Source: Candidatus Magasanikbacteria bacterium CG1_02_41_34
GTDB taxonomy: Bacteria; Patescibacteriota; Patescibacteriia; Magasanikbacterales; UBA922
Reading direction: 5' to 3'
Assembly (NCBI GenBank): GCA_001871445.1
Contig: MNVD01000025.1
Span: 8,808 to 72,807 of the forward strand
DNA: 64,000 nt
Part shown: one piece after another, positions 1 through 62,713 of the stretch
How positions within the stretch are numbered: position 1 is the first letter of the stretch
How the letters are laid out: the number at the start of each line of letters is the position of its first letter
Notes under the pieces: model-generated
Database searches by the model: none
What the model saw: only the letters and a program-made list of their open reading frames with translations
Told to the model about the DNA's origin: nothing
Made by a program: the position numbers and the translations under genes

Positions 1-403
1 ATCCTTTTTCAATCACAAACTTTTTCAGTTCTTCTGGCAGTTGAAATCTGTATACTCCATTCTCTTTTTTTTCGAGAAGAGTAGCAATACCGTGCACATG
101 TCCAGAGACGAGATGTCCTCCTATTTCATCACCAACTTTTATCGAGCACTCAATGTTCAAGCTATCGTTTGTTTCCAAATCGTAAAGCGTTGTCAAATTC
201 AGCGTTTCATTGGTCAAATCAAATGATACTGTGTCATCTTGAATGCTGACCACAGTCAAACACACACCAGCCACACACACGCTCGCTCCTATCTGAAGAT
301 TACGGAGAGATACATCACTAAAGAGAAGTGTGAGCATTGCCCCGTGTTCATGTTTTTTACATGATGCGACCGTCGCTGTTGATTGTATAATGCCGGAAAA
401 CAT
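1..403 (-). CDS. ribE: Riboflavin synthase alpha subunit, N-terminal part (gene runs off the window start)
   Basis: Minus-strand translation from the ATG at 403 gives MFSGIIQSTATVASCKKHEHGAMLTLLFSDVSLRNLQIGASVCVAGVCLTVVSIQDDTVSFDLTNETLNLTTLYDLETNDSLNIECSIKVGDEIGGHLVSGHVHG. This is the classic MFTGI(I/V)..G riboflavin synthase (lumazine-binding) N-terminus. There is no stop before position 1. It is absent from the ORF track because it runs off the edge. Confidence 0.72.
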   Translation of the reverse strand, partial: MFSGIIQSTATVASCKKHEHGAMLTLLFSDVSLRNLQIGASVCVAGVCLTVVSIQDDTVSFDLTNETLNLTTLYDLETNDSLNIECSIKVGDEIGGHLVSGHVHGIATLLEKKENGVYRFQLPEELKKFVIEKG

Positions 404-472
404 AAAGATAATTTTTAATTCCTCATTCTTTATTCATACCACCATACTACGTTTCTCATGCGCGTTCGTCAA

Positions 473-504
473 ATTGACAACGTATTTTTATGTATAGTAT
501 ACTC
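473..504 (+). promoter_or_regulatory. Sigma70-like promoter candidate upstream of the heptad-repeat gene
   Basis: TTGACA at 473-478, an 18-nt spacer, then TATACT at 499-504, in an AT-rich intergenic region. Confidence 0.3.
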
Positions 505-531
505 GATATGTATTCAATAAGAAGTAATACT

Positions 532-918
532 ATGGAGGAAAATATTACTCTCAAAGATGTATTCACTGCGGTGCAAGGCGTCAAGGATGAAGTGCGGGGT
601 CTGAAAAACGAGGTGCAAGGTGTGAAGGATGAGGTGCAAGGTGTGAAAGATGAAGTACAAGGTGTGAAGGATAAGGTGCAAAACCTCAAAGAACTTGTGC
701 TTGCAAACCAAGAAAGTATTGAATTTATCAAAGACAACGCTGTTACCAAAGATGAAATGAAAGAAGAACTTACGAAGGTTCGAAACGAAATCACAGAACA
801 TGTTGACGGTTTTGTTGGATTATACAAAGATCACGATACAGAGCTCGCCACTGTTATCTTACGTCAGCAAAGACAAGAGAAAAAGATAAAGAAAATTATG
901 GTGCATGTTGGTATGTAG
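532..918 (+). CDS. Hypothetical coiled-coil protein with heptad VKDEVQG tandem repeats
   Basis: ORF 490-918. The likely start is the MEENITLK ATG at 532. It contains 5-6 tandem 7-aa units (VKDEVRG/LKNEVQG/VKDEVQG...), then a K/E-rich helical tail. A terminator follows. Confidence 0.5.
   Translation: MEENITLKDVFTAVQGVKDEVRGLKNEVQGVKDEVQGVKDEVQGVKDKVQNLKELVLANQESIEFIKDNAVTKDEMKEELTKVRNEITEHVDGFVGLYKDHDTELATVILRQQRQEKKIKKIMVHVGM
571..696 (+). repeat. Six tandem 21-bp coding repeats (unit gtgcaaggtgtgaaggatgag)
   Basis: Directly visible tandem 21-nt units encoding V(K/Q)DEVQG heptads inside the 532-918 ORF. Confidence 0.8.
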
Positions 919-946
919 CCAGACATGGCGTGATTGAAGAAGGGAG

Positions 947-980
947 CAAAAAACCCACCGAATCAGTGGGTTTTTTGTTT
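947..980. terminator. Rho-independent terminator (bidirectional A-run/hairpin/T-run)
   Basis: aaaaaCCCACcgaatcaGTGGGtttttt located after the stop of the 532-918 ORF. Confidence 0.6.
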
Positions 981-1082
981 TCATCAGCCAGCCATATCGT
1001 CGTGAAGAAACAGTACAGAGGAGAGAGACTTCCACGAATGGAAGGAATCTGTTCCGTGCCTTTACAGATGTGACTGACTTGT

Positions 1083-1195
1083 GAGAGAGTAAACGACCGA
1101 AGTGCCCATGAAGGGCGATTCGATCGCCTTTGAAACAATCATGAAAACATCATTGCTTTAAAGGATCGACGAGGAGTGCTGCTCGTCGTCGATCA
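1083..1195. repeat. Bipartite structured repeat, copy 1. Module A is 1083-1143. Module B is the hairpin at 1164-1195.
   Basis: Module A: gagagagtaaacgaccgaagtgcccatgaagggcgattcgatcgcctttgaaacaat. Module B: gatcgacgaggagtgctgctcgtcgtcgatca. Both modules recur at 5224-5404 with about 90% identity. They lie 3' of the minus-strand high-GC gene. Confidence 0.65.
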
Positions 1196-1282
1196 TGCAA
1201 AATTACAAAGAACAATTGAGTGCATTGTGTCAGCTCCTGGCAGAGCACTCAGCGAGGCCAGGAACTTTTTTGCGTGGGTCTA

Positions 1283-2842
1283 TCAGCGGCTGACGCTGCC
1301 GTGCCCGTCGCACGCGGTGCACGAGAGATCGAGCGTGCCGCTGGCCAGGAAGGCCTTAGCGGTGCTCTTGTCCACGCGCACGGTGTTGCCGCAGCCACAC
1401 CGGAAGCACCGCCCGCCGATGTCGGTGAATGTAGTGACCTTTCCGACGATGACCTGCGGCTCGGGCTCCGTGGGGGCTTTCACCACCTCCACGACTTGTG
1501 GAACCTCTTCCACGCGCTCCCGCCAGCGCATGTGGAGGTTCCACCCACCGTACTTCTGAAAGGCCAGAAGTTCGAGGGCCCCACCGGCACAAGCGACCCG
1601 GTAGATAACCTGCGCCTCCGCGTTATCACACCGCTCCCCGAAGGGCCGAGAATGATTCACGCGAGACACGTACCGGCGGTCGTCATAGGCCTGGTACATC
1701 TGGACGCCATTCCGACCGGCGATTCGGCCGTACGTCCACGACGCTGCGTCATACGACGAGACGCTTTTCAGGTCATCCGGCAGCTGGCTATGCGCCAGCA
1801 TGATGGCCTGAAAACGGACGGCTTCGTCGAGCAGACGCTGTTGCTCGAGGATGGCTGCTGCCTGTCGCTCGACCTCCTTTTTCTTGGCGCTCTCAGCCCT
1901 CTCCGAGGAGAGATCAACAAACGTGTGGAGCCTCGCGAGATCGGCGAGAGTGTACAAGAAGCTCTCGGAGAACTGAGCATCTGGTGCCTTCGCACAGAGG
2001 CAATCCTCGTGATCATAAAAAACGATCCCGAGCACCTCCATGCGAGGCTTGAGCGCCTCGAACCCTGCCTCGAATTCCTTCTTTTCGGTATTCTTTGCTT
2101 CCTCTTCGAGCACCTCGGCCTCGGTCCTGTCGACCTCGGCTTCGGTGTACTCGCGAAGATCCCAGATGGACTCTCCATAGTGGAACGTCTCATCTTCGAG
2201 GGTGATCCCCTTGAGCCCGATCGCCATGCGACGCTCGGACATGGACAGGAGACGTGGCTCGAAGACCGGCTTTTGCGTGGCATTCGCCGTACGCTGCCGA
2301 GCAGCCTCTGCTTGCTCCTCCGCCTCACGAGCTTTGCGCGCTTCGATCTCGCGCCAAGCCCCTTCGACGAAGGTCGCATCAAACGTCCCGACTTCTCGCC
2401 CTGTCTCCCTATCGAATTTGGAGGGCACTCGTGTTGCCACGAGCGTCCGATCCTTGTTCGGTCGGGAGATGAGGTAGCACTCTACGTTCTTCGCCCTTCC
2501 GGCGGTGTGGACGTAGAGCACATCCCCGGGCAACAAGGCCCAGAGCGACTGTTGAAGCTCGCCGATCTGCTCCCACGAGCCGGCGAGTGTTTTTTTTACT
2601 CGCTCCCACAGAAGCTTCGGCTGCCCAGCACGTCGCTGAGCGGTCGCCCCTCCCATGGTCGTGCCGTGCGGTCCGTACGGCCGCACGTACACCACCACGG
2701 CACCCTGCGGTGCTGTGGCCGCGACCTCCCGTGCCACCTGAGGCACGGCAGTCTTGGCGAAATCCGCAACGAAAAATTCTCCAATCCCCTGCTCGGGGAC
2801 AAGGAGGGTCTCAACGGTCTTGTTGGTGTTCTGGTTCGCCAT
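1283..2842 (-). CDS. Hypothetical protein, high-GC ORF (about 519 aa). It is coiled-coil and E/R-rich with a C-terminal Cys cluster (CFRCGCG...CTACDGHG).
   Basis: ORF 1283-2890. The best start is the MANQNTNKT ATG at 2842, preceded by GGAGAGGAGG. GC is about 63% with GC3 strongly biased. The overlapping plus-strand ORF 1220-3001 is judged to be an antisense artefact of the high GC. Confidence 0.5.
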   Translation of the reverse strand: MANQNTNKTVETLLVPEQGIGEFFVADFAKTAVPQVAREVAATAPQGAVVVYVRPYGPHGTTMGGATAQRRAGQPKLLWERVKKTLAGSWEQIGELQQSLWALLPGDVLYVHTAGRAKNVECYLISRPNKDRTLVATRVPSKFDRETGREVGTFDATFVEGAWREIEARKAREAEEQAEAARQRTANATQKPVFEPRLLSMSERRMAIGLKGITLEDETFHYGESIWDLREYTEAEVDRTEAEVLEEEAKNTEKKEFEAGFEALKPRMEVLGIVFYDHEDCLCAKAPDAQFSESFLYTLADLARLHTFVDLSSERAESAKKKEVERQAAAILEQQRLLDEAVRFQAIMLAHSQLPDDLKSVSSYDAASWTYGRIAGRNGVQMYQAYDDRRYVSRVNHSRPFGERCDNAEAQVIYRVACAGGALELLAFQKYGGWNLHMRWRERVEEVPQVVEVVKAPTEPEPQVIVGKVTTFTDIGGRCFRCGCGNTVRVDKSTAKAFLASGTLDLSCTACDGHGSVSR

Positions 2843-3138
2843 GATATCCTCCTCTCCCGTACGCGGGAAGGTGATTTCTCTCTCACACATACCCCATGGC
2901 AGGAAGTACAGAGAAAATGTATTTGTATTGCAGTGGTGTGTGAGGTATCCACTACAATAGGAAAATCCCTTTTAAACCTTCAATCTTTATTAAAAATTTG
3001 AAAGGGATGGCGAGAGTGAATTAAATTCAACTCTCGCCAAAAAAAAACGAATGCAAAATTTCAAAGAACAAAGTGGAGTTGTTTCTTTATCCTCCCCTTC
3101 GTACTCCATGACGAAGGAGAGCAGATTTTAGGAGAAGT

Positions 3139-4971
3139 TTAGTTGCCCGGCTTCTCCTCGGGCTTGAGCGCCCCGCCGGCCACCTCGTCGAGCTTGCCGC
3201 CGTTGTTGCGGACGGCGATGCCCGAGTCGAGGTGGAGCTCCTCCCCCTCACCAATCAACGCGACCACCATGGTCTCGTTATGCTTGTTGGTGGAGGCCGA
3301 GAGGCTCCAGGCCGCCGCGGTCCCGGTGGACCGGTGCGAGATGGAGCTGCCGCTGCTGCGACGGCTCATCTGCACCCAGGAGGCGCCGCGCTTCCACGCG
3401 ATCATCCCCTGGCGGTTGCCCTCGTCCCACACCAGGTGCCCGCCCTTGTCCTTCTTTGACACGAGCCGCGCAGGGAGGTGCCAAACGCTCTCGGGGAACG
3501 GGACGTCCTCCGGGTCGGGGAGCTGCATGAGCAACTCGATCCGGTCCCGCAAGCGGTCGTCCACCGAGACGAACATCTGATCCCAGCTCGCACCACCCGG
3601 CTGCACGCGGAAGTAGAACCGTCCGAAACCCTTCTGCGGGTGACGGCCGAAGTTGGCCAGCCACGCGCGGGCGTCGAACGTCCCCTTCTCGCACCGCAGG
3701 GCGGTCTCGAGAGCGGAGAAGTTCACAGAGCTGTAGAGCGTCGCCTGGAGCTTGGTGCCGTTCCACTCCTTGACGGAGCGGATGGTCACCCAGCCGTCAG
3801 GATGCTGCGGGATCGTGGAGATGAGGTAGCCGGGCAGGACCGACCCCGCTCCCACTCGCCGGAAGCCCTCGCCGTTCCACTTGTACGTCTCGAGCTCGAT
3901 GATCTCACCCTTGTGGGTGATGACCAGCTTGCCCTTGATGTACGCGTGGGACTCGTCTGGCGTCTCCGGCAGCACCAGGAGGAGCTGCTCGCGGAAGAGC
4001 GGCCGGTAGTCGTACGTGTCACCGTACGTCTGGACCGCTTCGCGCGCGCACCGGATGAGGAACTCGATGTCCTCCTGCTCCTCGAGCCACTCCGTCGTCG
4101 GCGCCACCTTGGCCTGCGAGGGCTTCAGGTGTCCGTCGACGACGAGCTGCCAGGAGAACTTGGACTCACCGGCGATGTAGTCCGGCGAGCTGGCCGAGTT
4201 GAAACCCGTCCAGATCGTGCGCCCGAGCTGCTCGTACACCGCCGTGAGCGCGGCGTAGTCGCCGGTCTCGTGGAAGGCGTCGATGGCCTTGCGGCTCATC
4301 TCGACTTCATGCTGACGCTGAGCCGTCTCGCGCTTCTCCTGGACTCGGCGGCTGATCTCGTACGAGTCGAACCGCGCCGCCTTGAGCAGCTTCTCCGGCT
4401 TGTCGGCGGCCCAGGCGTCGAGGCGATCGCGGTAGGAATCCCCATCCTCGCCGTCCTCGATCTCGGGCCAGACCAGCTTGTCCGCCTGGAGCTGCGTCTT
4501 GCGCTGCTCCTCGGCGAACTGCTCAGCCGCGCCACTGGTGATGGCGTCCAGGACCTCTCTGGCCTGGCCACAGAACGTCGGGCAGCCCTTGCGGCCACCG
4601 AGATTCGGCAGCCGACTGCGCCAGCTCTCGGCCTGCGACCGCGGCATGGCCTCGATCTGCCGCTCGATGAGGTTGTCGAACGCGGTGCGAGCCCGGTTCG
4701 TCCCCTCCTGAGCGCGGTCGAGAGCCGCGACGAGCCGCTCCTTGCCGATGAGCTCGATGGCCGCCGCGGCCCACTCGAGCGCCGACTTCTCGAACTCGTC
4801 CATCGTGCGGGTCGACGGCGTGATGCCGCGCCCGCTTCCGTAGCTCTCCTCGTCACTGTGGGCGACCACCGCGGGGGTGGCGCCCTGGTTGTTGTCGATC
4901 TCGATGGCCGCCTTGACGGCCTGCTCCGGGGACACGAGTCCCTGCTTCAGGAGCTGCTCCAGGATGCTCAT
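3139..4971 (-). CDS. Hypothetical protein, high-GC ORF (610 aa)
   Basis: Long minus-strand ORF with protein-like composition (MSILEQLLKQGLVSPEQAVKAAIEID...). GC is about 64%. I recognised no domain. The plus-strand ORF 3478-5076 is an antisense artefact. Confidence 0.5.
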   Translation of the reverse strand: MSILEQLLKQGLVSPEQAVKAAIEIDNNQGATPAVVAHSDEESYGSGRGITPSTRTMDEFEKSALEWAAAAIELIGKERLVAALDRAQEGTNRARTAFDNLIERQIEAMPRSQAESWRSRLPNLGGRKGCPTFCGQAREVLDAITSGAAEQFAEEQRKTQLQADKLVWPEIEDGEDGDSYRDRLDAWAADKPEKLLKAARFDSYEISRRVQEKRETAQRQHEVEMSRKAIDAFHETGDYAALTAVYEQLGRTIWTGFNSASSPDYIAGESKFSWQLVVDGHLKPSQAKVAPTTEWLEEQEDIEFLIRCAREAVQTYGDTYDYRPLFREQLLLVLPETPDESHAYIKGKLVITHKGEIIELETYKWNGEGFRRVGAGSVLPGYLISTIPQHPDGWVTIRSVKEWNGTKLQATLYSSVNFSALETALRCEKGTFDARAWLANFGRHPQKGFGRFYFRVQPGGASWDQMFVSVDDRLRDRIELLMQLPDPEDVPFPESVWHLPARLVSKKDKGGHLVWDEGNRQGMIAWKRGASWVQMSRRSSGSSISHRSTGTAAAWSLSASTNKHNETMVVALIGEGEELHLDSGIAVRNNGGKLDEVAGGALKPEEKPGN

Positions 4972-5094
4972 TCCATTTCTCCAGGGCTTTCGCCCACATG
5001 CTCTTTCCCATTTGGAATGACCGAATGGTCTTCAGACGATGGTACGACGGTACCGTGTCTTATCCATCAGGATTGAGCAGATTCTAGGCACATC

Positions 5095-5158
5095 ACTGTG
5101 CCCTTCTTCCAATTTTTTTAACGCAAAAAAACTCCTGAAGGGCACAGTATTATTTTTT
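5095..5158. promoter_or_regulatory. Nested palindrome upstream of the 3139-4971 gene, which also forms a plus-strand terminator-like hairpin
   Basis: A 12-bp perfect inverted repeat, actgtgcccttc (5095-5106) against gaagggcacagt (5137-5148). It encloses an inner T7-aacgc-A7 palindrome and is followed by a T-run at 5151-5158. Confidence 0.4.
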
Positions 5159-5223
5159 ATTATGTAAAGAACATAATATATTCCCAATTCTAAAATCTGA
5201 ATTCATAATTCTTCATTCGAACT

Positions 5224-5404
5224 GAGAGAGTAAGCAACCGAAGTGCCCACGCGGGGCGATTCGGTCGCCTTTGGAAAAATGATTTTATGAAATCATTTCT
5301 CGGAAGGAACATCATATATACACATATTTTGTAATGAACCGTTGCCAAACCACAGAGTGATTTGGGCATCTTGGTCGACGAGGAGTGCTACTCGTCGTCG
5401 ATCA
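5224..5404. repeat. Bipartite structured repeat, copy 2. Module A is 5224-5285. Module B is the hairpin at 5373-5404.
   Basis: Module A: gagagagtaagcaaccgaagtgcccacgcggggcgattcggtcgcctttggaaaaat. Module B: ggtcgacgaggagtgctactcgtcgtcgatca. It lies 3' of the minus-strand high-GC gene 5454-5972. It contains small hairpins (ggcgattcgRtcgcc) and a larger imperfect hairpin. Confidence 0.65.
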
Positions 5405-5453
5405 AGTGCAATTTTGCCACAGTCTTCACCGCTGGGGCTCGGTTATATGTCGG

Positions 5454-5972
5454 CTAGAGAGGGAGGTACTCGTCCACCTCCTCGAAGCGGACCGGGGCGT
5501 GATTCACGCGCTCCGGGAACTTCGAGAGGATGGCCTCATCGTGGACGCGAACACCCACGACGTAATACACCCCGCGCTCTGCGCCGAACAGCTTCACGTG
5601 GTGGCGCCGAGCCACCGGGTTCACCGGCAACCGGGCCTCCTTCTGCGTCACGAACTTCCCCGTAAGCACCTGACCAAGCCATTGCTTGGTAAACTGCTCG
5701 AGGTCGTTCCCCGCGACACCGCGGGCCGCCGACCACACGCCCGCCACGTCCAGCCAATTGCTCCCATCGTGGGAGCAGACCGCCGTGTACCTGGGCAACA
5801 TCCACCACCAGAGGGCGGGGAGGCCGAAGAACAAGGCGGCGAGGCCCACGACCGAGTCGAGGCCGCTCTGGTCCCAGACGCCGTCGGCGGCGACGAGGAT
5901 GTCGTGCCCGAAGGCGGCGGCGATGGCGATGACGACGGCGCTGGCGATGACGACGGCGATGAGCTTCTTCAT
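5454..5972 (-). CDS. Hypothetical membrane-anchored protein, high-GC ORF (172 aa)
   Basis: MKKLIAVVIASAVVIAIAAAFGHD... is a hydrophobic N-terminal anchor with a W-rich region. The RBS is TAGGAGGT. GC is about 64%. Confidence 0.5.
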   Translation of the reverse strand: MKKLIAVVIASAVVIAIAAAFGHDILVAADGVWDQSGLDSVVGLAALFFGLPALWWWMLPRYTAVCSHDGSNWLDVAGVWSAARGVAGNDLEQFTKQWLGQVLTGKFVTQKEARLPVNPVARRHHVKLFGAERGVYYVVGVRVHDEAILSKFPERVNHAPVRFEEVDEYLPL

Positions 5973-6019
5973 GATGACCTCCTAAAAGGCAAAGCAAACT
6001 CACCAACATGGCGAGTTGC

Positions 6020-6069
6020 GAGAAGCAATCAAGTGACAGTACTCATTACTGTCAATTTCATTGCTTCTC
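6020..6069. promoter_or_regulatory. Nested palindrome upstream of the high-GC gene 5454-5972
   Basis: Outer 10-bp inverted repeat gagaagcaat (6020-6029) against attgcttctc (6060-6069). Inner 8-bp inverted repeat tgacagta/tactgtca (6034-6054). Confidence 0.35.
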
Positions 6070-7363
6070 ACAACTATTTTTTCTAGTCAATTTAAATGAA
6101 CAACTTTCAAAAAAGTTTTTTCTCCAAAACTCTCGGAAAGCTAGGCGCGCAGACCATCTCAACCATCACGAAAAGATGATCTGTCACCATAGCCTTCTGA
6201 AAATTCTGCTGCTGCGAATTTCTTTCATGCACTATCTAACTAAATATATTTTCTCAAGTGCAAATGCGAAGAAGTAACTTCCAAAATGGGATTATTTTAT
6301 ATGTACACCCCGTGCCGTCACACTCCGCACAGTCATTCCAAAACAGTGGTAATGAATGTTTACACGTTGTACACAATGTTCGAATACTCATACACACGTA
6401 TTTACTTGTCTACTTACTACTTGTTACTTAATGAACATTCATCGCAATATATGCAAATGATGTCGCGAGTGTAAGAAAAATAAATTGGATCATACCGTTG
6501 TAAATAGTTTTCTGTATTTTTTTTGTTTGAAAGAACAATCATCAGTCTTGTTTTGCCAAGCAAAACATATTCTTCAATCTTTCTCTGCGTAATACAGAGT
6601 GTTCCCACTTTCATACATCTTGCGATGTATGAAGGAGGAACGCACTCGGTACTACAGTTTCTGATGAGACTGTAGTCTGATCGAGAAGGAGTGCCTTACC
6701 AAATTTCTTTAGCAATCACTATCAACTCCCATCAGCATTCTCCGTAGCCAAAGCGTTGGAGAAGAAAACCAGATGTGTATCTCACATCGCCGGAAAGAAT
6801 CTCTCTCCATAAGTCACGTGGCGTGAGCTTTACGGGACCTTTCCTTTTCTCGGGCGATGCGGGATCAGACACTTGTAAAGATTTGTATGCGTCAGTAGCA
6901 GACTACAAACTTCCGCATCCTTGTTCGTCTCACAACAAGCGAGAGACGAACTCAGACGTTTTGGAAGGAACCTTGCTCCGACAGATATGGATGGCAGTAT
7001 GTGGTCGAACGATGAATCGGTGGTGTACTCTAGAAAGATGTACTGTGCCGTGTCGTTCTTTGTCCGCCTTGGGCGGATTATGACCTCTCTCCGTGTCATC
7101 CATGTCTGTAGAAACAAAAACACTCTCTTGGTGGAGAGAGTATTGAAAATTTTTAATTTCCTTGGGCTCTCTCCTTCCCTTGGATATCCGTATTTACATT
7201 ATAAGGTGGGGGTCAATCTCGCTTCCCCTTTTCTCATGTTGACGGAATACTATATCACGCAATGCGATATTTGTCAATACTGAGTGGATAGTTGTTGTGG
7301 ACATATCCATTTTTTTGCTTAATTAAAGCCTTTTTTTGTACAAAATAACCTGTCCAGATATAC

Positions 7364-7392
7364 TTGACAAATAATGCACGGTGTGCTATAAT
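7364..7392 (+). promoter_or_regulatory. Consensus sigma70 promoter (TTGACA, 17 nt, TATAAT)
   Basis: ttgaca at 7364-7369, an exact 17-nt spacer, tataat at 7387-7392. It would drive a leader containing the structured repeat at 7487-7640 and then the TrmB-family gene. Confidence 0.55.
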
Positions 7393-7486
7393 ACTGCTAT
7401 ATTAAGCCAAAAAATCCGTCTTTTCATTCCAAACAATTTAGCAGTATACACGAAAAAATGGCTTATTTTAGAGAAAAAATAAAGTT

Positions 7487-7640: not shown

Positions 7641-7773
7641 AGGCCCTAAAACTTATCCTCAAATAACTTTTTACTCACATTTTTCCCTTATTTTAGCCAA
7701 ATTCCCCATTTATCCCGCCTTTGGCAGGGATCCCGTCCAGGCGAAGCACTGGCGGGACTATTTACCAACCCAT

Positions 7774-8556
7774 ATGAACCAAACAACCCTCGACACCCTA
7801 AAAAAAGCAGGCATGGATGAAAAAACTGCCGAAATGTACCTTATTTTAGCAGAAAATGGGGAGAGCACCGTGCCTCAGATCCTAGAGCTTACACAGCTTT
7901 CTAGGGCCACCGTGTATGACGTGCTTCCACAGCTCCTCGCAGATGACTTTATTGAATATAGAAAGGATGGCCGAGTGGCCTACTATAGAGCCGTCCACCC
8001 CACAAAGCTCCTCGAGCTTCTGGATCAAAAAAAACGCCAACTCTCACTGCTCGAAGAAGAAATGACAGAGACTGTCCGCCAAGTAGTTGGAAGTTTTCAG
8101 CTGGCAAATAGTAAACCAGGAGTGAGGTTTTTTGAGGGAATTGAAGGCATTATGGAAGTCATAAATGATTCCCTGAGTGCAAAAGGAGACATCCTCACGT
8201 ATCTTGATGTCGAAGCAACTCAAAAGTATATATCAGGGCAAAATAAAGAGTATGTCAATAAACGTGTGGAGCTAGGCATTCACAAAAGAATGATCGCTCC
8301 CAACACACCAGCAACCAGAGAACGATACAGAAATTACAATCCAAATATTGAAGTGCGTCTCATGCCGCCAGATATAAAACCTTTTGAAACGAGTGTACAG
8401 ATGTACAACGACACAATTTCTTTTTCGTCACTCGATGAGGAAAAAATGATTGGAGTTCTTATTGAAGACAAGAAGATAGTCCAGCTACACAAATCTATTT
8501 TTGAATTCGTCTGGAAATCATTGCCAAAACTCACGTATTCTGACTCTGAGACCTAG
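7774..8556 (+). CDS. TrmB-family (sugar-specific-type) HTH transcriptional regulator
   Basis: The N-terminal winged helix (LILAENGESTVPQILELTQLSRATVYDVLPQLLADDFIEY) plus the C-terminal effector domain match TrmB-like regulator architecture. A paralog is at 59581-60306. Confidence 0.65.
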   Translation: MNQTTLDTLKKAGMDEKTAEMYLILAENGESTVPQILELTQLSRATVYDVLPQLLADDFIEYRKDGRVAYYRAVHPTKLLELLDQKKRQLSLLEEEMTETVRQVVGSFQLANSKPGVRFFEGIEGIMEVINDSLSAKGDILTYLDVEATQKYISGQNKEYVNKRVELGIHKRMIAPNTPATRERYRNYNPNIEVRLMPPDIKPFETSVQMYNDTISFSSLDEEKMIGVLIEDKKIVQLHKSIFEFVWKSLPKLTYSDSET

Positions 8557-10876
8557 GCAGTCTCACCATTCGTATGTATTCCTTGCCGGTTTTTTGATTC
8601 TCGTAAGGTGCTCCATCCACAACAAACTGAAGCTGATCGCGATAAAGCGCGACTGCATTTTTATTTTCAGTACGAACTACAAGTGAAATAGATTTCCGTG
8701 GATCTTGTCTATCAAGTATTTCTGAAAAAAATGCGCTTCCTATATGTAACCCCTGCACGCCCTTCATCGCATTTACAAAACCGGTGTACAAATTTCCATC
8801 TTCAGTGGTATCAAATCTTGCAAAGGCCACCACTGTGTCATCTTTTTTTAGCATATATATCATATGCCCTGATTCAGTCATCACAGGATCAAATTCTCCT
8901 TCTACTCGTTGCTTTGCAAATTCTGATGAGACATCAAGCCTGTTATCGTGAAACATTTTGCGAAGTTCCTCACGCTCAGACGAAGTAAGGTCTGCACTAT
9001 CTTTCTGAAGAATGTCTACTCCACGCATTGCTTCAAAATCTACTTTTTTCTGACTTGCTGTCATTTCTTTGAACAACACCCCAAAAGAAAAAACATTCGC
9101 ACGTAAACTCTGCAATTGAATCAAATATTGTTTCCTTTTTTTCTCATCTGCATGCAACAATGTATCAAGGAGTGCATACGCGCGAGAAGCAATCTGATCA
9201 GTAATCCTTGGAATATTTACTTCTTGGTCTCTCTGTCCATCCAGATAAAATTCTTTCACTCGCGCATCGACAACATCCAACTCAGCAATAATTTTATTAT
9301 ACAAAATAAATACTGTTTCTTTTGTATGTTCTTCTATGCCTTCATCTTCGGCAAAAGATACAATAGCAGCACCGATATTTGCATTTTTCTCTGATGCAAT
9401 AAACACACGGACCCCATAAATCCCATATGTCTCTTTCAATTTTTTTGCCTGTTTCCATTCTTCCGTAGTGGAATTTTTCCAATACTGAAACATCCACACC
9501 TGCTCTCGGAGCGTAAGATCACTCATCCTGATGCCACCAATTTCACCAAACACTTTTTCATAAAAATCTGTATAGTCTGCGAGAAATTGTTGACGAATAT
9601 CATCAGGAGTATCAGCATCAGAAAAAAGTAAATCTCTCGACACTTCTAGCAAGGCAGCATCTTGTTCGGACACAATATCAGCTAATTCCCCTAGCTTAAA
9701 ATAGGAAATAAGTCCACCTTGCTTATCAAAAATTCCAACTTTTCCATCCACTGTAATACGTCTTGCATTTTCCGCTTTTGAAATGTCTCCCTTTAAAACA
9801 AAACTTTTTTCCAAATATGTGACGACTCCTTTTTTGATTCCAATTTTACCAGCTTCAAGTCTGTGCCAAATTGCATTTGCCGCCGATCGAATAAATCTAT
9901 CCTCATGTGTCGCAAGTCCTTTTGTTTGCAATTGATCTATTGTATATTGGGAGTCTATCTGACTGCATGCCGTTGCTATCACAGGAATGAAATAGGCACT
10001 TTGCTTTTGCATAAATGACAAAAGAGCATCAACGCTTCGATGTGTACCCTGCTCACCTATTCTACGAATGAGTTGATAGATGCGATAAGAACTTACGTTA
10101 TCAAAATATCTATTTGCTGAGACATCCAAATCAGCATAGGCATCATTGCCTTTGAGGTCAACATCACTATAAAACATTCCCCCTGATCCTAACTCCAAAT
10201 TTTCACCTAAGACATCCAAGAGGTCAACAAAAACTTCTTCCCACTCTGAGGCATATTGTGGGTACTGCGTAGCTAATCTGTCAATTGTTTCAATCAATTG
10301 ATATTCAAAACGGTCTTCATCCGTCGGACTACTTATTGTCTCAATATTCTCATTCAAAAATTTCATTCCGCGATCCTCACCGACCTGTTGCAAAAAATCG
10401 CTTGCGGCTCTCCTTTTTAACTCTCTACTTTTATGAAAGTTCCCTAAAATAGGTTCAAGGTTGGATCCATATGGAGGCTCAACCAACATATTTTGTATAA
10501 CAACTTGAATCTCTGCAACCAGGGCACGTATATCTCCATTTTTCTTTTCCAAAATATATGACAACATTTCTGGACAGGGGATCTCTTCCTCGCTGGTCCG
10601 AATGTTACTCATTAAAAGAAACTGCAATGTGCCAAGATCTATATTGTTTAATGCCTCTTTTGCTTCACGAATCTTGTGATTTTCTGAATAGTCACCATAG
10701 CAAATGTCCCCCAATGTTTTTGGAGAGTATTCTCTTATTAATGTATTTCTCAACTGTCCAAACTCTTCATGCAACATATCCTGTTCTTCTGCGGAGTCAG
10801 TTACTTGGTCACTTGTTTGATCCATTGGATCTTCCAAATGCTGTGTAAATTGTGGATCATTATCCATACGATACAT
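8531..10876 (-). CDS. Large hypothetical protein (781 aa) with a C-terminal GNAT-like acetyltransferase fold
   Basis: The C-terminus (VVAFARFDT...GFVNAMKGVQGLHIGSAFFSEIL...ISLVVRTENKNAVALYRDQLQFVVDG) resembles GNAT motif A (Q/R-x-x-G-x-G/A). The N-terminal 600 aa are acidic with no recognised domain. Confidence 0.55.
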   Translation of the reverse strand: MYRMDNDPQFTQHLEDPMDQTSDQVTDSAEEQDMLHEEFGQLRNTLIREYSPKTLGDICYGDYSENHKIREAKEALNNIDLGTLQFLLMSNIRTSEEEIPCPEMLSYILEKKNGDIRALVAEIQVVIQNMLVEPPYGSNLEPILGNFHKSRELKRRAASDFLQQVGEDRGMKFLNENIETISSPTDEDRFEYQLIETIDRLATQYPQYASEWEEVFVDLLDVLGENLELGSGGMFYSDVDLKGNDAYADLDVSANRYFDNVSSYRIYQLIRRIGEQGTHRSVDALLSFMQKQSAYFIPVIATACSQIDSQYTIDQLQTKGLATHEDRFIRSAANAIWHRLEAGKIGIKKGVVTYLEKSFVLKGDISKAENARRITVDGKVGIFDKQGGLISYFKLGELADIVSEQDAALLEVSRDLLFSDADTPDDIRQQFLADYTDFYEKVFGEIGGIRMSDLTLREQVWMFQYWKNSTTEEWKQAKKLKETYGIYGVRVFIASEKNANIGAAIVSFAEDEGIEEHTKETVFILYNKIIAELDVVDARVKEFYLDGQRDQEVNIPRITDQIASRAYALLDTLLHADEKKRKQYLIQLQSLRANVFSFGVLFKEMTASQKKVDFEAMRGVDILQKDSADLTSSEREELRKMFHDNRLDVSSEFAKQRVEGEFDPVMTESGHMIYMLKKDDTVVAFARFDTTEDGNLYTGFVNAMKGVQGLHIGSAFFSEILDRQDPRKSISLVVRTENKNAVALYRDQLQFVVDGAPYENQKTGKEYIRMVRLPRSQSQNT

Positions 10877-14456: not shown

Positions 14457-15182
14457 TCATCCCATGATGGCGGCGTACGTCCCGTACGACGCCAGCGTGA
14501 TGAAGAAGTTGTCCCACCAAGGGACGTACGCTTCCGCAAGCCCTCCTGCCAGTACAGCAAAGTATTGAGTCATGAACGTTGACGCACCGAGCGTTAACGC
14601 ACCAGTTGCGACAAGACCAAGGTCCAAGAACAACACCATGAGTGATGCCACGAAGATGAAGCTCAAAAAACCTGCCCAGGTCTTCTTATCCTTGCGACCC
14701 GGCAAGTAAGCCCCTTCGATGCTCTTGCCACCGATTCGCGCTGCAGGATCGCCCCACGACAAGATCGTCATGATGAAGAGGGCTTCTATCATCGGTGCGT
14801 GAAACACCAGACGAATGACGACAAGCCCGAGCAGGTAGCTGGACATCGCTGTCAGCTTTCCGCGTTCCTTCGGTCGAATGAACCAACGAGCGATATGCTT
14901 GTAGAACCACTCATACCAATTCGCGTACCAGATGCCAGGCGCCCACTTCTTCGAAGTCCAGTAGCCGGTGATCATGAAGGTCTCCACGACCGGCACGGCG
15001 ATACCGAAACCGATGAGCGTTGCATCGATATCGGCGTCAGTCACCTGTGGCATGACGACGAGTACGAATGCTACAACGTTGAAGATGATGTGCAGGAATG
15101 CACGTCCGAGCTCGAGCTCAGGCTTCTCGTTCGTAGTCGACTTCTTCTCAACGAAATTCTTCGAGTTCACATTGCCCTCCAT
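14457..15182 (-). CDS. Polytopic membrane protein, possibly in the CTP-dependent polyprenol/dolichol kinase or CDS-like family
   Basis: Multiple TM helices. Motif LSWGDPAARIGGKSIEGAYLPGRKDKKTWAGFLSF. The family assignment is tentative. Confidence 0.5.
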   Translation of the reverse strand: MEGNVNSKNFVEKKSTTNEKPELELGRAFLHIIFNVVAFVLVVMPQVTDADIDATLIGFGIAVPVVETFMITGYWTSKKWAPGIWYANWYEWFYKHIARWFIRPKERGKLTAMSSYLLGLVVIRLVFHAPMIEALFIMTILSWGDPAARIGGKSIEGAYLPGRKDKKTWAGFLSFIFVASLMVLFLDLGLVATGALTLGASTFMTQYFAVLAGGLAEAYVPWWDNFFITLASYGTYAAIMG

Positions 15183-24400: not shown

Positions 24401-24727
24401 TCAGGTATCAGACACGTCGTCGAGAAGAAGGTAGATTCGCTCCGTGGTATTATTATAAACCAACGGTATTTTTCTCTTCCCTTAGGGAAAAAAGTAATAC
24501 CTTTGGCTCATTTGACGACTGCTACAATATACGTTGAAATAAGGGAAAAGTCAAGTACTGAACACGTGTATAACTATTTGTCAAGAACTGCACATTTTTG
24601 GCTTATTTTAGCAAAATAGTGTTTTTCTTACTAGGGCGACGTGGGGTGGTTATCCCTAGAGTTATCCACATTTCATGGGACATATAGCATGTTGCAGATA
24701 ACAAAACAGCTTTTGCACAGCCTTAGC

Positions 24728-24891: not shown

Positions 24892-26106
24892 ATGAACCAC
24901 CGCATCGACGCTCCCCGCGAGCACTCGTTCCTCGTCCGCTTCCTCCTGGTTCTCCCGTTCGGCGTGCTCCTGAGCACGCAGATCGGGTGCGCCGACGACG
25001 CGCAGCAGCCCGTCGTGACCGACGACTCCTCCATCACCGAGCGCCTCGATGCGCTCGAGGATCAGGTGGCGGGGCTCCAAGCGCAGGCCGATCGGGTCGA
25101 TCAGCTCGAGACCCGTGTGCACAGCCTCGAGCTGCAGCACCTGGTCGCAGTGGCCGACCAGCAGCGCCTCCAGCTGGAGCTGGACATGGCGAAGAGCCAG
25201 CTCGACCCGTTCGTGAAGACCTTCACTTTCGTCGGTGCCGAGACGCCGGATCCGTACGACACGATGGTCTACGTGAACGGATCGCTCAACCTCGGCATCA
25301 ACGACCTGCTCGTCCGCAACATCGGGGCGAGCAACGTCAACAGCGACCAGGCCACCTTCGGCGAAAGCTGGACACTCGGAGCACAGCACGTAGAGTCCTT
25401 GGCCTTCAAGCAGGACAACTACGAACGGTTCATGTACGGCTTCGACCTGGAGTGGATCCACCAGATCAGCCCGTTCACCCTGTCCAGTTACGACGAGAAC
25501 GGGGAGAGCGTGATCACGTTCACCAGCGGCCACGTCCGCGTGAACAACCTCCGCGCTTACAATCAGCTGCGCGGGGACACGTTGTACGTCGATACCTATG
25601 GCGCCATGCCCGAGCTCAACGTCTGGAATCGTCTCGTGACAGGGAACCTCGAGGCCTTCAGTGTCGAGGTCAAGGAGCTCCTGAACGTGCTCAACGAGGC
25701 CTCGTTTGGCTTCAACGACACGACGGGACCAGCGGTGACGATCACTCGAAATGGCCTCGCTAGCGGCATGCTGATCAGCTCACCAAGCCAGGTCAGTTAT
25801 TCTGAGAAGGCATGGCTCTTTCGCGCCAGCCAGCTCGTCTCGTTCGGCCAGTCCAACGGCGACGGAACCTGGAGCATGATGCTTGAGGACGCCAAGCTCG
25901 TAGCACGCAGAGGCATGTCAGTCTCGAACGAGAATGATAACTGGTTCAACCCAGGTGCCCTGGTGGTGCATGGAGACAGCAAGTTCAAACAGGCCAGCGA
26001 CGGCACGCCGGCAGATGTCACGATCGAGGGCAGCCTCAACGTGACCGGGGCGGCCGACACCGGCTGCTTGCAGACCGAGGTCGATTCCTGCATCGACCTG
26101 CAGTAG
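24892..26106 (+). CDS. Hypothetical secreted lipoprotein, high-GC ORF (404 aa)
   Basis: Signal peptide with a lipobox-like LSTQIGC. N-terminal coiled coil (LDALEDQVAGLQAQADRVDQLETRVHSLELQ). GC is about 64% and GC3 about 95%. The RBS is GAGAGG. Confidence 0.55.
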   Translation: MNHRIDAPREHSFLVRFLLVLPFGVLLSTQIGCADDAQQPVVTDDSSITERLDALEDQVAGLQAQADRVDQLETRVHSLELQHLVAVADQQRLQLELDMAKSQLDPFVKTFTFVGAETPDPYDTMVYVNGSLNLGINDLLVRNIGASNVNSDQATFGESWTLGAQHVESLAFKQDNYERFMYGFDLEWIHQISPFTLSSYDENGESVITFTSGHVRVNNLRAYNQLRGDTLYVDTYGAMPELNVWNRLVTGNLEAFSVEVKELLNVLNEASFGFNDTTGPAVTITRNGLASGMLISSPSQVSYSEKAWLFRASQLVSFGQSNGDGTWSMMLEDAKLVARRGMSVSNENDNWFNPGALVVHGDSKFKQASDGTPADVTIEGSLNVTGAADTGCLQTEVDSCIDLQ

Positions 26107-62532: not shown

Positions 62533-62551
62533 TTTTCCAGTGGGCAAAGAC

Positions 62552-62578
62552 AAGCCACCACAATGGTGGTTTTTTCTT
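62552..62578 (+). terminator. Rho-independent terminator after rmuC
   Basis: CCACCA caa TGGTGG tttttt. Confidence 0.55.
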
Positions 62579-62634
62579 ACTCATGCTCGTGTATCAAAAA
62601 ATTTATATATGGGCAGGAGGAAGAATATATCTGT

Positions 62635-62687
62635 GTTTGAGTGCGTACAGAGTATCGGTGTTCTCGATATTATGTACGCACTCAAAC
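62635..62687. promoter_or_regulatory. 15-bp perfect inverted repeat (operator-like) immediately upstream of the high-GC gene 62714-63331
   Basis: gtttgagtgcgtaca, 23 nt, then tgtacgcactcaaac. It ends 26 nt before the ATG and RBS AGGAG. Confidence 0.4.
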
Positions 62688-62713
62688 CACAACCAAGCAA
62701 CAGGAGACTCGTC

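What the first reader, a model, noticed from the sequence alone, without database searches (positions are those of the whole stretch)
1060..6100. Cluster of three high-GC, GC3-saturated ORFs whose compositional boundaries coincide exactly with ORF edges
Genes 1283-2842, 3139-4971 and 5454-5972 are about 63-64% GC with codon third positions almost all G/C. The DNA between them (2843-3138, 4972-5453) and around them is AT-rich host-like sequence. That DNA carries host-type elements: the ctccccttcgt hairpin motif seen elsewhere in the window, good Shine-Dalgarno sites and nested palindromes. Natural island transfer normally carries flanking donor DNA. Here only the ORFs are foreign-looking. None of the three proteins matches a family I recognise (one coiled-coil with a Cys-cluster, one 610-aa, one membrane protein). 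This is the most likely place for an undescribed system. One hypothesis is acquisition from a high-GC Actinobacteria host by an episymbiont. Alternatives are assembly chimerism or an engineered sequence.
Basis: partly seen in the sequence, partly recalled or inferred. Interest (0 to 1): 0.85.

Follow-up and report, generated by a model that had tools for sequence, protein, structure and literature searches.

The report
Swappable foreign genes behind an RNA leader
Three GC-rich genes of unknown function sit in a low-GC candidate-phyla bacterium at a hypervariable site where whole reading frames are exchanged while the AT-rich spacers stay put, and the site begins with a previously undescribed structured RNA next to a TrmB-type regulator gene.

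Summary
Three minus-strand ORFs (1283-2842, 3139-4971, 5454-5972) have 62-67% GC and GC3 of 0.74-0.92. The host (Magasanikiibacteriota, CPR) has GC3 of 0.33 ± 0.05. It is not an artefact: many independent assemblies carry the same locus, and g2 evolves under purifying selection (dN/dS 0.23).

"Exactly at ORF edges" holds for most 5' edges and both g2 edges. GC-rich hairpins extend 50-90 nt past the stops of g1 and g3.

Two comparisons show why the boundaries are sharp. A second Magasanikiibacteriota MAG shares only the g2 ORF (91% nt, from the ATG to about the stop). A sister genome shares only the spacers (73-96%), and ten unrelated GC-rich ORFs lie between them. So ORFs or domains are swapped inside conserved AT-rich scaffolds.

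The array follows a conserved structured RNA with no Rfam match and a divergent TrmB-family gene. This layout recurs in L017 and L022; in the sister genome the RNA and array are seen, but the contig ends before any TrmB.

The genes come from a high-GC pool, but nothing points to Actinobacteria.

Protein functions are unknown. g1 shares a C-terminal module with HrpA-like helicases, and g3 is a membrane protein that sits beside helicase-like genes elsewhere. I infer, without a test, a conflict or defence cargo array.

The parts
1283..2842 (-). g1, 519 aa. It has an orphan N-terminal region with a coiled coil. Its C-terminal module (about residues 360-517) has an 'REAQVV...WGGWNLNLRWRE' domain plus a CxxC...CxxC zinc ribbon.
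   Evidence: GC3 is 0.74. It has no Pfam, PHROG or PADLOC family. In the word-indexed search it found only itself. Full HMMER found 56 relatives: N-terminal matches to P0026-P0028, and the C-terminal module at the C-termini of HrpA/HrpB-like DEAH helicases. An alternative start at 2890 (535 aa) is used by some annotations.
3139..4971 (-). g2, 610 aa. It belongs to a very small family (11 clusters among 5.8 billion proteins) and has no recognisable fold.
5454..5972 (-). g3, 172 aa. It has two N-terminal helices predicted as membrane-spanning and a conserved soluble domain of about 110 aa that ends in the motif FEE.DE.LPL.
1082..1142 (-). D3a, a conserved hairpin element in the 3' region of g1. 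A second copy is at 5223-5283.
   Evidence: The two copies are 85% identical, against 0 matches expected by chance. On the minus strand it folds as a long hairpin, and the differences between copies keep the pairing. It is also present twice in the sister genome.
1166..1204 (-). D6a, a GC-rich hairpin downstream of g1. A second copy is at 5375-5413.
   Evidence: It is also present downstream of the unrelated ORF c132 in the sister genome.
1195..1282 (-). Conserved 3' flank of g1, with a CCUGGC...GCCAGG hairpin.
   Evidence: It is 96% identical to the 3' flank of the otherwise unrelated 740-aa ORF of the sister genome. The homology continues about 190 nt into the zinc-ribbon coding part and then stops.
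2843..2944 (-). Scaffold in front of g1: 5' untranslated region plus Shine-Dalgarno GGAGGA.
   Evidence: It is homologous (63-73%) to the region in front of the unrelated ORF c108 in the sister genome. The homology ends about 5-6 codons into the ORFs.
3090..3125 (-). Hairpin directly after the g2 stop (CTCTCCTTCGT...ACGAAGGGGAG).
   Evidence: Sequence.
4972..5309 (-). Scaffold in front of g2. It holds D3b (5223-5283), the conserved long-range hairpin CUGUGCCCUUC/GAAGGGCACAG, the 5' untranslated region and the Shine-Dalgarno GGAGA.
   Evidence: It is 76% identical to the region in front of the unrelated ORF c740 in the sister genome. Identity per 30 columns is 60-100% and falls to random level about 5 nt before the ATG.
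5375..5413 (-). D6b, the second copy of the GC-rich hairpin, downstream of g3.
6588..6741 (-). R1, a structured RNA module of about 150 nt upstream of the ORF array and running in the same direction.
   Evidence: RNAalifold predicts 54 pairs, 9 of them with compensatory double changes across 3 genomes. The covariance model finds it in L035 and L017, and in L022, which was not in the seed (37 bits, E about 1e-9). The ORF strand fits better than the opposite strand: 1/2/3/8 non-pairs against 5/8/9/18. No Rfam family matches.
6590..7150 (-). Larger conserved, highly structured non-coding region that contains R1. It ends at a terminator-like hairpin at 7119-7144.
   Evidence: Blocks of about 100% identity to the sister genome contrast with 74% in the neighbouring coding gene. 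The mismatches are not 3-periodic and there are 31/6/3-nt indels. Folding z-scores are -6.3 and -7.5. There are 6-8 compensatory pairs.
7249..7277 (-). Promoter-like site (TTGACA-17-TATAGT with an extended TG) that could drive the leader and the array.
   Evidence: Consensus scan only. Function is inferred.
7774..8556 (+). TrmB-family winged-helix regulator gene, divergent from the leader and array.
   Evidence: Pfam PF01978, E 1.7e-11. A divergent TrmB gene stands in the same position in L017 and L022. TrmB genes also lie within 10 kb of the g3 homologues in L013 and L014.
490..918 (+). Left boundary: a host coiled-coil ORF, followed by a terminator-like hairpin at about 950-982.
   Evidence: It is syntenic with the sister genome at 74% identity. 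Composition is host-like. The hairpin was read from the sequence.

Best explanation
The three ORFs are the current cargo of a hypervariable gene array that sits at a fixed place in this Magasanikiibacteriota chromosome. The array lies between a host coiled-coil gene and a long structured leader RNA, with a divergent TrmB-family regulator gene beyond the leader.

Shown: the AT-rich spacers are inherited with the host. They carry the Shine-Dalgarno sites, 5' leaders, D3/D6 hairpins and 3' flanks. Whole reading frames, or terminal domains such as the g1 zinc ribbon, are replaced by unrelated GC-rich sequences. The junctions fall within a few bases of the start codon or at a domain border. That is why the composition switches at the ORF edges.

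Shown in part: the incoming ORFs come from a high-GC gene pool and also circulate between Patescibacteria.

Inferred:
- The array is read as one unit from a promoter upstream of the leader. The leader, which contains terminator-like hairpins, and TrmB control its expression.
- Exchange happens by recombination at or near gene boundaries followed by selection, as in phage mosaicism. The conserved spacers may serve as homology arms between strains.
- The cargo proteins act in conflict, either anti-phage defence or host interaction. They comprise a small membrane protein, a 610-aa orphan, and a protein with a nucleic-acid-type zinc-ribbon module otherwise found on HrpA-like helicases.
For: 1. The compositional contrast is real.

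2. The locus is real. At least 8 contigs from four pipelines carry it, and L023, L024 and L025 span the island-TrmB junction.

3. The ORFs are coding and under constraint. For g2, dN/dS is 0.23 and third-position substitutions are in excess. Conserved families exist.

4. ORF-only homology. The window and L007 share 91% nt identity over 3146-4971. Fifty-nine of the first 60 bases from the ATG are identical, and no similarity is found in 480-650 nt of either flank.

5. Spacer-only homology. The sister genome (L033+L035) shares both flanks (74-82%) and the spacers:
- 4978-5309 at 76%.
- 2826-2944 at 73%.
- 2964-3071 at 75%.
- 1195-1470 at 80%.
- D3 and D6 at 83-96%.
It carries ten different GC-rich minus-strand ORFs.

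6. Recurrent architecture of TrmB, RNA and co-directional GC-elevated orphan ORFs:
- L017: two g1 paralogues.
- L022: a g2 homologue, with the RNA hit independent of the seed and TrmB on both sides.

7. High-GC pool. A g2 homologue lies in a 66-68% GC phage-like contig. The family shows a GC3 gradient of 0.56 to 0.92, always above AT-rich flanks.

8. The scan found no canonical minus-strand terminator between 5972 and 1283. The only ones lie in the leader.

9. Domain links among cargo proteins of different arrays:
- g1 C-terminus to HrpA-like helicases.
- c740 to L014_496 and to the g1 zinc ribbon.
- g3 homologues next to helicase-like genes and, in L013, next to a type III CRISPR-Cas module.

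10. Single-gene transfer and genomic islands are documented as common in Patescibacteria (PMC12455944). Single-gene mosaic modules with junctions at gene boundaries are documented in phages (PMC3029335).
Against: - No recombinase, transposase or phage gene lies next to the array, so the exchange mechanism is unknown.
- Only one sister genome documents spacer conservation.
- The RNA family has four members. One of them (L022) scores only 37 bits, and its alignment was fitted to the model.
- Transcription of the array from the leader promoter is inferred from consensus scans only. Weak promoter-like sites also exist in front of g2.
- g1 homologues in L017 have host-like GC3 (0.31-0.34), so not every cargo gene is GC-rich.
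- Other GC-rich ORFs in the window (for example 24892-26106) and the L007 copy of g2 have no R1 RNA nearby. The leader is therefore not required for holding a GC-rich ORF.
Confidence: 0.55

Rival explanations
1. An ordinary one-off horizontal transfer. A three-gene island was acquired recently from a high-GC organism, for example the Actinobacteria host of an episymbiont, with nothing special about the locus.
For: Codon usage of g1-g3 (and g4) is mutually similar and unlike the host. High-GC relatives of g2 exist. HGT is frequent in Patescibacteria (PMC12455944).
Against: - The spacers between the ORFs are host-like and homologous to those of a sister genome that carries different ORFs.
- g2 occurs alone, bounded exactly by its ORF, in another MAG.
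- The same TrmB-RNA-array layout recurs in other genomes.
- No homologue was traced to Actinobacteria, and the only high-GC context resembles proteobacterial phages.
- The three genes have different sets of relatives.
Confidence: 0.15
2. The GC-richness is actively maintained in resident genes rather than being a sign of recent arrival. Possible causes are selection for rare codons to throttle toxic proteins, selection for stable mRNA or avoidance of AT-specific nucleases, or biased gene conversion among copies in the population.
For: g2-family members are GC-elevated relative to their flanks in every context seen. This includes three Magasanikiibacteriota MAGs whose copies are only 46% identical. 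dS of 0.215 between the window and L007 coexists with unalignable flanks.
Against: - The family shows a continuous GC3 gradient (0.56, 0.61, 0.75, 0.83-0.92), as expected from amelioration rather than maintenance.
- g1 relatives in L017 are fully host-like.
- GC1 and GC2 are also raised, so the amino-acid composition itself is that of a high-GC lineage.
- The unalignable flanks are explained by demonstrated ORF replacement.
Confidence: 0.15
3. An integron-like capture platform. A dedicated site-specific mechanism inserts promoter-less ORF cassettes at folded recombination sites (D3/D6-type hairpins) downstream of a fixed leader.
For: - The array has one orientation and holds orphan ORFs of foreign composition.
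- ORF content differs between strains.
- Repeated structured elements lie 3' of the ORFs in both genomes.
- A fixed head with a divergent gene is present.
Against: - No tyrosine recombinase or any other recombinase is adjacent; the divergent gene is a TrmB-type regulator.
- D3 and D6 are separate hairpins, not one imperfect palindrome with attC-type core sites.
- They follow only some ORFs.
- Junctions also occur inside ORFs at domain borders, which fits general recombination better than site-specific capture.
Confidence: 0.08
4. An assembly chimera or an engineered or contaminating sequence.
For: The GC steps are sharp. Several public assemblies break near 7160-7475.
Against: - The island is identical in at least 8 contigs from ENA, NCBI, JGI and Logan.
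- Three contigs bridge the junction.
- The breaks coincide with a genuine strain variant that replaces 7161-7474.
- Natural homologues are under purifying selection.
- The same pattern occurs in unrelated samples.
Confidence: 0.01

Closest known systems
Integron gene-cassette arrays
   Same: Both are one-directional arrays of mostly orphan ORFs with heterogeneous, foreign composition. ORF content varies between strains. The boundaries hug the ORFs. Structured repeats lie 3' of the ORFs. The array has a fixed head next to a divergently transcribed gene.
   Different: There is no IntI or other recombinase. The head gene is a TrmB-type regulator and the head carries a long structured RNA. The spacers are 300-480 nt, and a Shine-Dalgarno site and 5' leader precede each ORF. 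D3 and D6 are not attC-like single palindromes. Some junctions lie inside ORFs.
Phage mosaic modules and morons (single-gene modules with junctions at gene boundaries; PMC3029335)
   Same: Single genes of deviating composition are exchanged between otherwise collinear genomes. The junctions lie at or near gene or domain boundaries. AT-rich regulatory DNA sits beside GC-rich ORFs. A g2 relative lies in a phage-like contig.
   Different: The locus is chromosomal, in a CPR bacterium, with no phage genes nearby. The spacers, not the genes, are the conserved part. A conserved leader RNA and a TrmB gene head the array.
Genomic islands and individually transferred genes in Patescibacteria (PMC12455944)
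   Same: Composition is atypical. Transfer is mostly between Patescibacteria with occasional outside donors. Hypothetical proteins dominate.
   Different: Classical islands bring donor intergenic DNA and often have tRNA, integrase or repeat borders. Here only the ORFs are foreign, and the site has a conserved RNA and regulator head.
Long cis-acting leader RNAs of operons (riboswitch or attenuator leaders; processive-antitermination leaders such as EAR) — named from my own knowledge
   Same: A conserved, covarying structure lies 5' of a multi-gene unit and runs in the same direction. It contains terminator-like hairpins.
   Different: It has no Rfam match. No ligand or antitermination partner is known. 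The genes downstream are not a conserved pathway but interchangeable orphan ORFs.
HrpA/HrpB-like DEAH helicases carrying the g1-type C-terminal module
   Same: g1 residues 360-517 align with the extreme C-termini of 1269-1570 aa HrpA-like proteins.
   Different: g1 has no helicase core, and its N-terminal 330 residues belong to a separate small family (P0026-P0028).

Membership tests
Integron | An adjacent IntI tyrosine recombinase gene, divergent from the array | tested here: not met
   The divergent gene is TrmB family (PF01978) in the window and L022, and by precomputed Pfam annotation in L017. The neighbouring ORFs that were scanned (490-918, 7774-8556, 8531-10876) have no integrase domain.
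Integron | attC sites: single imperfect palindromes with R''/L''-L'/R' cores after each cassette | tested here: inconclusive
   D3 and D6 fold as two separate hairpins with a variable hairpin between them, and they follow g1 and g3 but not g2. No formal attC model was run.
Integron | Cassette content differs between related genomes at a fixed site | tested here: met
   The window has 3 ORFs and the sister genome has 10 different ORFs between the same flanks.
Phage moron or mosaic module | A gene present in one genome and absent or replaced in a collinear relative, with junctions at gene boundaries | tested here: met
Phage moron or mosaic module | Each ORF has its own promoter and terminator | tested here: inconclusive
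   Only 9/12 promoter-like matches lie in front of g2. The scan found no minus-strand terminator inside the array.
Phage moron or mosaic module | The module resides in a phage or prophage genome | tested here: not met
   There are no phage families in the island or its flanks. The neighbours are core genes: PNPase, S15, RuvC, rpoBC.
Classical horizontally acquired genomic island | Atypical composition and codon usage | tested here: met
Classical horizontally acquired genomic island | A contiguous block of donor DNA including intergenic regions, with tRNA, integrase or direct-repeat borders | tested here: not met
   The spacers are host-like and conserved with the sister genome. The nearest tRNAs are at 38.9 and 59.4 kb. 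The D3/D6 repeats are internal, not bordering.
Known anti-phage defence systems (PADLOC 2.0) | A significant match of any component to a defence-system model | tested here: not met
   The best E-value for g1-g3 is 0.036. The helicases that share the g1 module give only weak Cas3-core hits.
Any Rfam RNA family (for the leader, D3 and D6) | A covariance-model hit at or near the gathering score | tested here: not met
   Only tRNAs pass the gathering threshold in the window. The best sub-threshold hits are 14.6-21.3 bits, far below the gathering scores.
Cis-regulatory leader RNA (generic class) | A conserved secondary structure with covariation, 5' of the controlled genes and running in the same direction | tested here: met
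   There are 54 pairs, 9 of them compensatory. The orientation relative to the ORFs is the same in 4 loci. The strand test favours the ORF strand.
Cis-regulatory leader RNA (generic class) | A demonstrated switch (terminator/antiterminator or ribosome-site occlusion) and an effector | not testable with these tools
   Terminator-like hairpins at 7144-7119 and 6788-6772 are consensus matches only.
Nudix hydrolases (for the g3 soluble domain) | Nudix fold plus the Nudix box GX5EX7REUXEEXGU | tested here: not met

The most novel reading that the evidence does not exclude
The locus could be a dedicated gene-capture and expression platform, a functional analogue of an integron that has no integrase. 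In this reading, a conserved leader RNA and a TrmB-type regulator head an array in which foreign reading frames are installed with near-codon precision into pre-existing host expression scaffolds (Shine-Dalgarno site, 5' leader, 3' hairpins). This would let a genome-reduced CPR bacterium sample and express genes from high-GC neighbours or their phages. The leader RNA might take part in the insertion or in terminator read-through.
Probability: 0.2. Interest if true: 0.9.

Novelty: new variant of a known kind. Interest (0 to 1): 0.68.

Why it matters
CPR/Patescibacteria have tiny genomes, and their accessory genes are almost all uncharacterised. This locus gives a concrete anatomy for how such organisms turn over accessory genes. 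The spacers stay fixed and the ORFs are exchangeable, which produces an unusual, easily searchable signature: GC3-saturated ORFs in AT-rich scaffolds.

It also yields testable objects:
- A new structured RNA family linked to TrmB regulators and to variable gene arrays.
- Three or more new protein families.
- A new C-terminal module shared with HrpA-like helicases.

If ORF-precise exchange turns out to be mechanistic rather than the result of selection, it would be a new route of gene acquisition.

Tried and rejected
- **Family scans.** Pfam, PHROGs and PADLOC on g1-g3 gave nothing. Pfam on the other GC-rich ORFs of the window gave nothing above threshold, and Pfam on nine of the sister-genome ORFs gave nothing.
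- **g3 structure.** The resemblance to Nudix is weak and was not accepted.
- **PDB sequence search with g1.** No hit.
- **Remote homology.** hhalign of the g2 family against g1 and against the 740-aa partner of g3 homologues found no relationship.
- **g1 C-terminal HMM.** It hit nothing new in the other loci.
- **Viral searches.** IMG/VR scans with the g2 and g3 families and a tblastn of g2 against GenBank phages found nothing. A conserved block of the leader has no exact match in IMG/VR.
- **Flank homology.** A sensitive search between the window and L007 flanks found only chance 8-11-mers.
- **D3/D6 outside this lineage.** They were found only in the same genome and its sister genome.
- **Revised idea.** I first thought the g2 family is GC-saturated everywhere. 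L031 and L032 show GC3 of 0.61 and 0.56, so I dropped that.
- **Antisense ORFs.** 3478-5076(+) and 5385-6086(+) are called as genes in some public assemblies. I rejected them as by-products of GC3 saturation. The sense frame has GC3 > GC1 > GC2, third-position substitutions are in excess, and Shine-Dalgarno sites and homologues support it.
- **Possible TrmB operator.** The motif GCTTATTTTAGCAAAA is enriched: 7 hits against 1.2 expected. It is also present in front of the L007 g2 copy. Exact matches to its 11-nt core are absent from L017 and L022, so it stays a lead only.

Full report
**1. Observation**

The three minus-strand ORFs exist as described. Their composition, with GC by codon position, is:

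| ORF | Coordinates | Length | GC | GC1/GC2/GC3 |
|---|---|---|---|---|
| g1 | 1283-2842 | 519 aa | 0.617 | 0.66/0.45/0.74 |
| g2 | 3139-4971 | 610 aa | 0.673 | 0.64/0.45/0.92 |
| g3 | 5454-5972 | 172 aa | 0.667 | 0.68/0.41/0.91 |

- Thirty-six other ORFs of the window average GC3 0.327 ± 0.053, so the three lie 7.8-11.2 sd away.
- The spacers are 0.40-0.43 GC.
- Their synonymous codon usage correlates at 0.80-0.89 with each other and negatively with rpoB, rpoC and ftsK.
- A change-point search puts the GC step within 5-14 nt of both g2 edges and of the g3 start. It lies 51-91 nt beyond the stops of g1 and g3, and 61 nt beyond the g1 start. "Exactly at the ORF edges" is therefore true mainly for the 5' edges and for g2.
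- GC-rich hairpins follow the stops.
- The same kind of ORF occurs four more times in the window: 24892-26106, 14457-15182, 60470-61063 and 62540-63331.

**2. Not an artefact**

- The g2 protein is encoded, with the same neighbours, on at least 8 contigs from ENA, NCBI (GCA_002788415.1), JGI and Logan assemblies. These are 99.7-100% identical to the window over 1-7160.
- Three more contigs (L023, L024, L025) run from the island into the TrmB gene and the core genes exactly as the window does.
- Many assemblies break between 7153 and 7475. A second strain variant carries a different sequence in place of 7161-7474, which explains the breaks.

**3. Coding strand and constraint**

GC3-saturated genes automatically leave the antisense frame open, and some public annotations call the antisense ORFs. 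The minus frames are the real ones, for four reasons:
- GC3 > GC1 > GC2 in those frames.
- GGAGG-type ribosome sites precede the ATGs.
- Homologues are conserved as proteins.
- Between the window and the 90%-identical copy in another MAG, substitutions fall 30/31/84 on codon positions 1/2/3, with dS 0.215 and dN/dS 0.23.

**4. Who has these genes**

*g2.* The family is tiny: 11 clusters among 5.8 billion proteins. Members were found in these contexts:
- Another Magasanikiibacteriota MAG (UBA12086, 90% aa identity), as a lone GC-rich ORF in a different neighbourhood.
- A third Magasanikiibacteriota MAG (46%) and a MAG labelled Gammaproteobacteria (30%).
- Several short metagenome contigs.
- A uniformly 66-68% GC contig with HK97-type capsid, protease and tail genes. 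Its capsid is closest to Rhizobium, Burkholderia and Pseudomonas phages.

In every low-GC context the gene is richer in GC than its flanks. The excess is graded: GC3 is 0.56, 0.61, 0.75, 0.83, 0.85, 0.86 and 0.92. That is what amelioration after import from a high-GC pool predicts.

*g3.* It has 13 relatives at 53-67% identity, with GC3 of 0.43-0.58 in low-GC genomes. There it sits directly upstream of 740-779 aa proteins distantly related to a DEAD/HA2 helicase. In L013 it follows a type III CRISPR-Cas module.

*g1.* In the word-indexed search it found only itself. Exhaustive HMMER found relatives of its N-terminal 330 residues (P0026-P0028). It also found a two-part C-terminal module: an 'REAQVV...WGGWNLNLRWRE' domain plus an FRCxCG...CxxCG zinc ribbon. 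This module ends many proteins, including 1269-1570 aa HrpA/HrpB-like DEAH helicases.

**5. Why the boundaries are sharp**

Two reciprocal comparisons answer this.

(a) *Window against L007.* Nucleotide identity of 91% runs from the first base of the ATG (59 of the first 60 bases identical) to a few codons before the stop. Nothing is alignable in 480-650 nt on either side, even with 7-nt words.

(b) *Window against the sister genome.* A metagenome scan for the core of the D3 hairpin recovered two overlapping contigs of a sister genome (L033+L035, 13.7 kb composite).
- Its flanks match the window: 381-994 at 74%, and 6305-7077 at 80-82%.
- Its spacers match too:
  - The 334 nt in front of g2 (4978-5309, 76%) lie in front of an unrelated 740-aa ORF.
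  - The g1 5' region (2826-2944) lies in front of an unrelated 108-aa ORF.
  - 2964-3071, D3 (twice) and D6 are all present.
- The island there holds ten different minus-strand ORFs with GC3 of 0.69-0.93. Nine were scanned and none has a Pfam family.
- In front of g2 and c740, identity is 60-100% per 30 columns through the Shine-Dalgarno sequence. It drops to random level about 5 nt before the ATG.
- At the 3' end of g1, homology with c740 covers the zinc-ribbon codons (about 78%) and the next 85 nt (96%). It starts at the domain border.

So ORFs and terminal domains are exchanged, while the AT-rich scaffolds are inherited with the chromosome.

**6. A conserved head**

- Between the array and the divergent TrmB-family gene (7774-8556) lie about 1.8 kb without a credible ORF.
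- Positions 6590-7150 are far better conserved with the sister genome than the neighbouring coding gene. The mismatches are not 3-periodic, and the indels are 31, 6 and 3 nt.
- The region folds 6-7 sd better than shuffles and shows compensatory changes.
- Its promoter-distal 150 nt (6741→6588, minus strand, here called R1) also occur in L017, the locus of the best g1 homologue. The three-sequence consensus has 54 pairs, 9 of them with double compensatory changes.
- A covariance model built from these sequences finds one more copy in L022, which was not used to build it (37 bits, E about 1e-9).
- In all four loci the RNA points towards the ORF array. L017 carries two g1 paralogues, and L022 carries a 207-aa ORF and the g2 homologue.
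- A TrmB-family gene lies divergently on the other side in the window, L017 and L022. The sister contig ends before that point.
- G·U pairs favour the ORF strand: non-pairs are 1/2/3/8 against 5/8/9/18 on the opposite strand. The alignment was fitted to the model, so this test is biased.
- No Rfam family matches.
- A strong promoter-like site (7277→7249) and two terminator-like hairpins (7144→7119, 6788→6772) lie upstream of or within the leader on the ORF strand. The scan found no minus-strand terminator inside the array. This suggests, but does not show, one leader-controlled transcription unit.

**7. Mechanism: shown and inferred**

Shown:
- Foreign codon usage.
- Purifying selection on g2.
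- ORF-only and spacer-only homology.
- A fixed chromosomal site.
- The recurrent TrmB-RNA-array layout.
- A graded GC excess in the g2 family.

Inferred:
- Import from a high-GC pool (phage-borne at least once) and spread between Patescibacteria.
- Exchange by recombination at gene or domain borders followed by selection, as in phage mosaicism (PMC3029335), with the conserved spacers possibly acting as homology arms.
- Control of the array by the leader and TrmB.
- A conflict or defence role for the cargo. The grounds are strain-level turnover, orphan proteins, a membrane protein, helicase-linked modules, and a CRISPR-adjacent relative.

**8. Comparison and novelty**

The locus behaves like an integron array or a string of phage morons, but it fails their defining tests. 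It has no recombinase, no attC-type sites, no phage context, and junctions that sometimes fall inside ORFs. Gene transfer into and among Patescibacteria is documented (PMC12455944). My literature searches found no description of:
- ORF-limited replacement inside conserved spacers in these bacteria.
- This RNA.
- Its link to TrmB.

I therefore rate it a new variant of a known kind, namely a hypervariable accessory-gene array or genomic island. There is a minority chance that it is a dedicated capture platform.

**9.

- "Foreign ORFs in host DNA" is right and is now explained.
- Actinobacteria, chimerism and engineering are not supported.

Noticed in passing
window 24892-26106 (+), 14457-15182 (-), 60470-61063 (+), 62540-63331 (+): Four more ORFs have foreign, GC3-rich composition (0.86, 0.70, 0.60, 0.75). 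They are inserted singly between core genes, for example between rpoB and ftsK and between S15 and RuvC. None has a Pfam family above threshold. The 404-aa ORF is followed by its own GC-rich hairpin and then a terminator. No R1 RNA lies next to them.
   Followed up: partly
window 7461-7476, 7686-7701, 7839-7854, 24601-24616; L007 9573-9583: The motif GCTTATTTTAGCAAAA is enriched: 7 hits at up to 3 mismatches against 1.2 expected. It clusters around the TrmB gene. It also sits about 125 nt before promoter-like sites in front of two GC-rich ORFs: the 404-aa ORF here and the g2 copy in L007. It may be a TrmB operator. Exact matches to its 11-nt core are not found in L017 or L022.
   Followed up: partly
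window 7153-7475: This is a strain polymorphism. In several assemblies (L001-L003 on one side, L027-L030 on the other) a different sequence of unknown length replaces 7161-7474. This explains why many public contigs end here. The breakpoint lies directly after the terminator-like hairpin at 7119-7144.
   Followed up: partly
window 3478-5076 (+), 5385-6086 (+), 1220-3001 (+): Long antisense ORFs cover each GC-rich gene. Gene callers in some public assemblies annotate these (532 aa, 233 aa) instead of the true minus-strand genes. They are a by-product of GC3 saturation.
   Followed up: yes
L013 4743-13016: A g3 homologue and its 779-aa helicase-like partner lie immediately downstream of a type III CRISPR-Cas module (Cas6, RAMP proteins). 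They sit inside a GC-elevated island of a 30-38% GC genome, near a TrmB gene.
   Followed up: no
L022 5003-12614 (contig CAZEDL010000002.1): A MAG labelled Gammaproteobacteria carries the same layout: a TrmB gene, the R1-like RNA, GC-rich ORFs including a g2 homologue, and a second TrmB gene. Either the locus type extends beyond Patescibacteria or the contig is mis-binned.
   Followed up: partly
L017 1077-7872: The array behind the R1-like RNA in this genome mixes GC-rich ORFs (GC3 0.59-0.80) with host-like ones (0.31-0.36). The host-like ones include two paralogues of the g1 N-terminal region. This looks like cargo of different ages.
   Followed up: partly
window 570-695: Five to six tandem 21-nt (7-residue) repeats lie inside the host coiled-coil ORF 490-918 that borders the island.
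   Followed up: no
window 7364-7392 (+): A perfect sigma-70 consensus promoter (TTGACA-17-TATAAT with TG) lies about 380 nt upstream of the TrmB start. The long leader between them contains GC-rich hairpins and two copies of the motif above.
   Followed up: no
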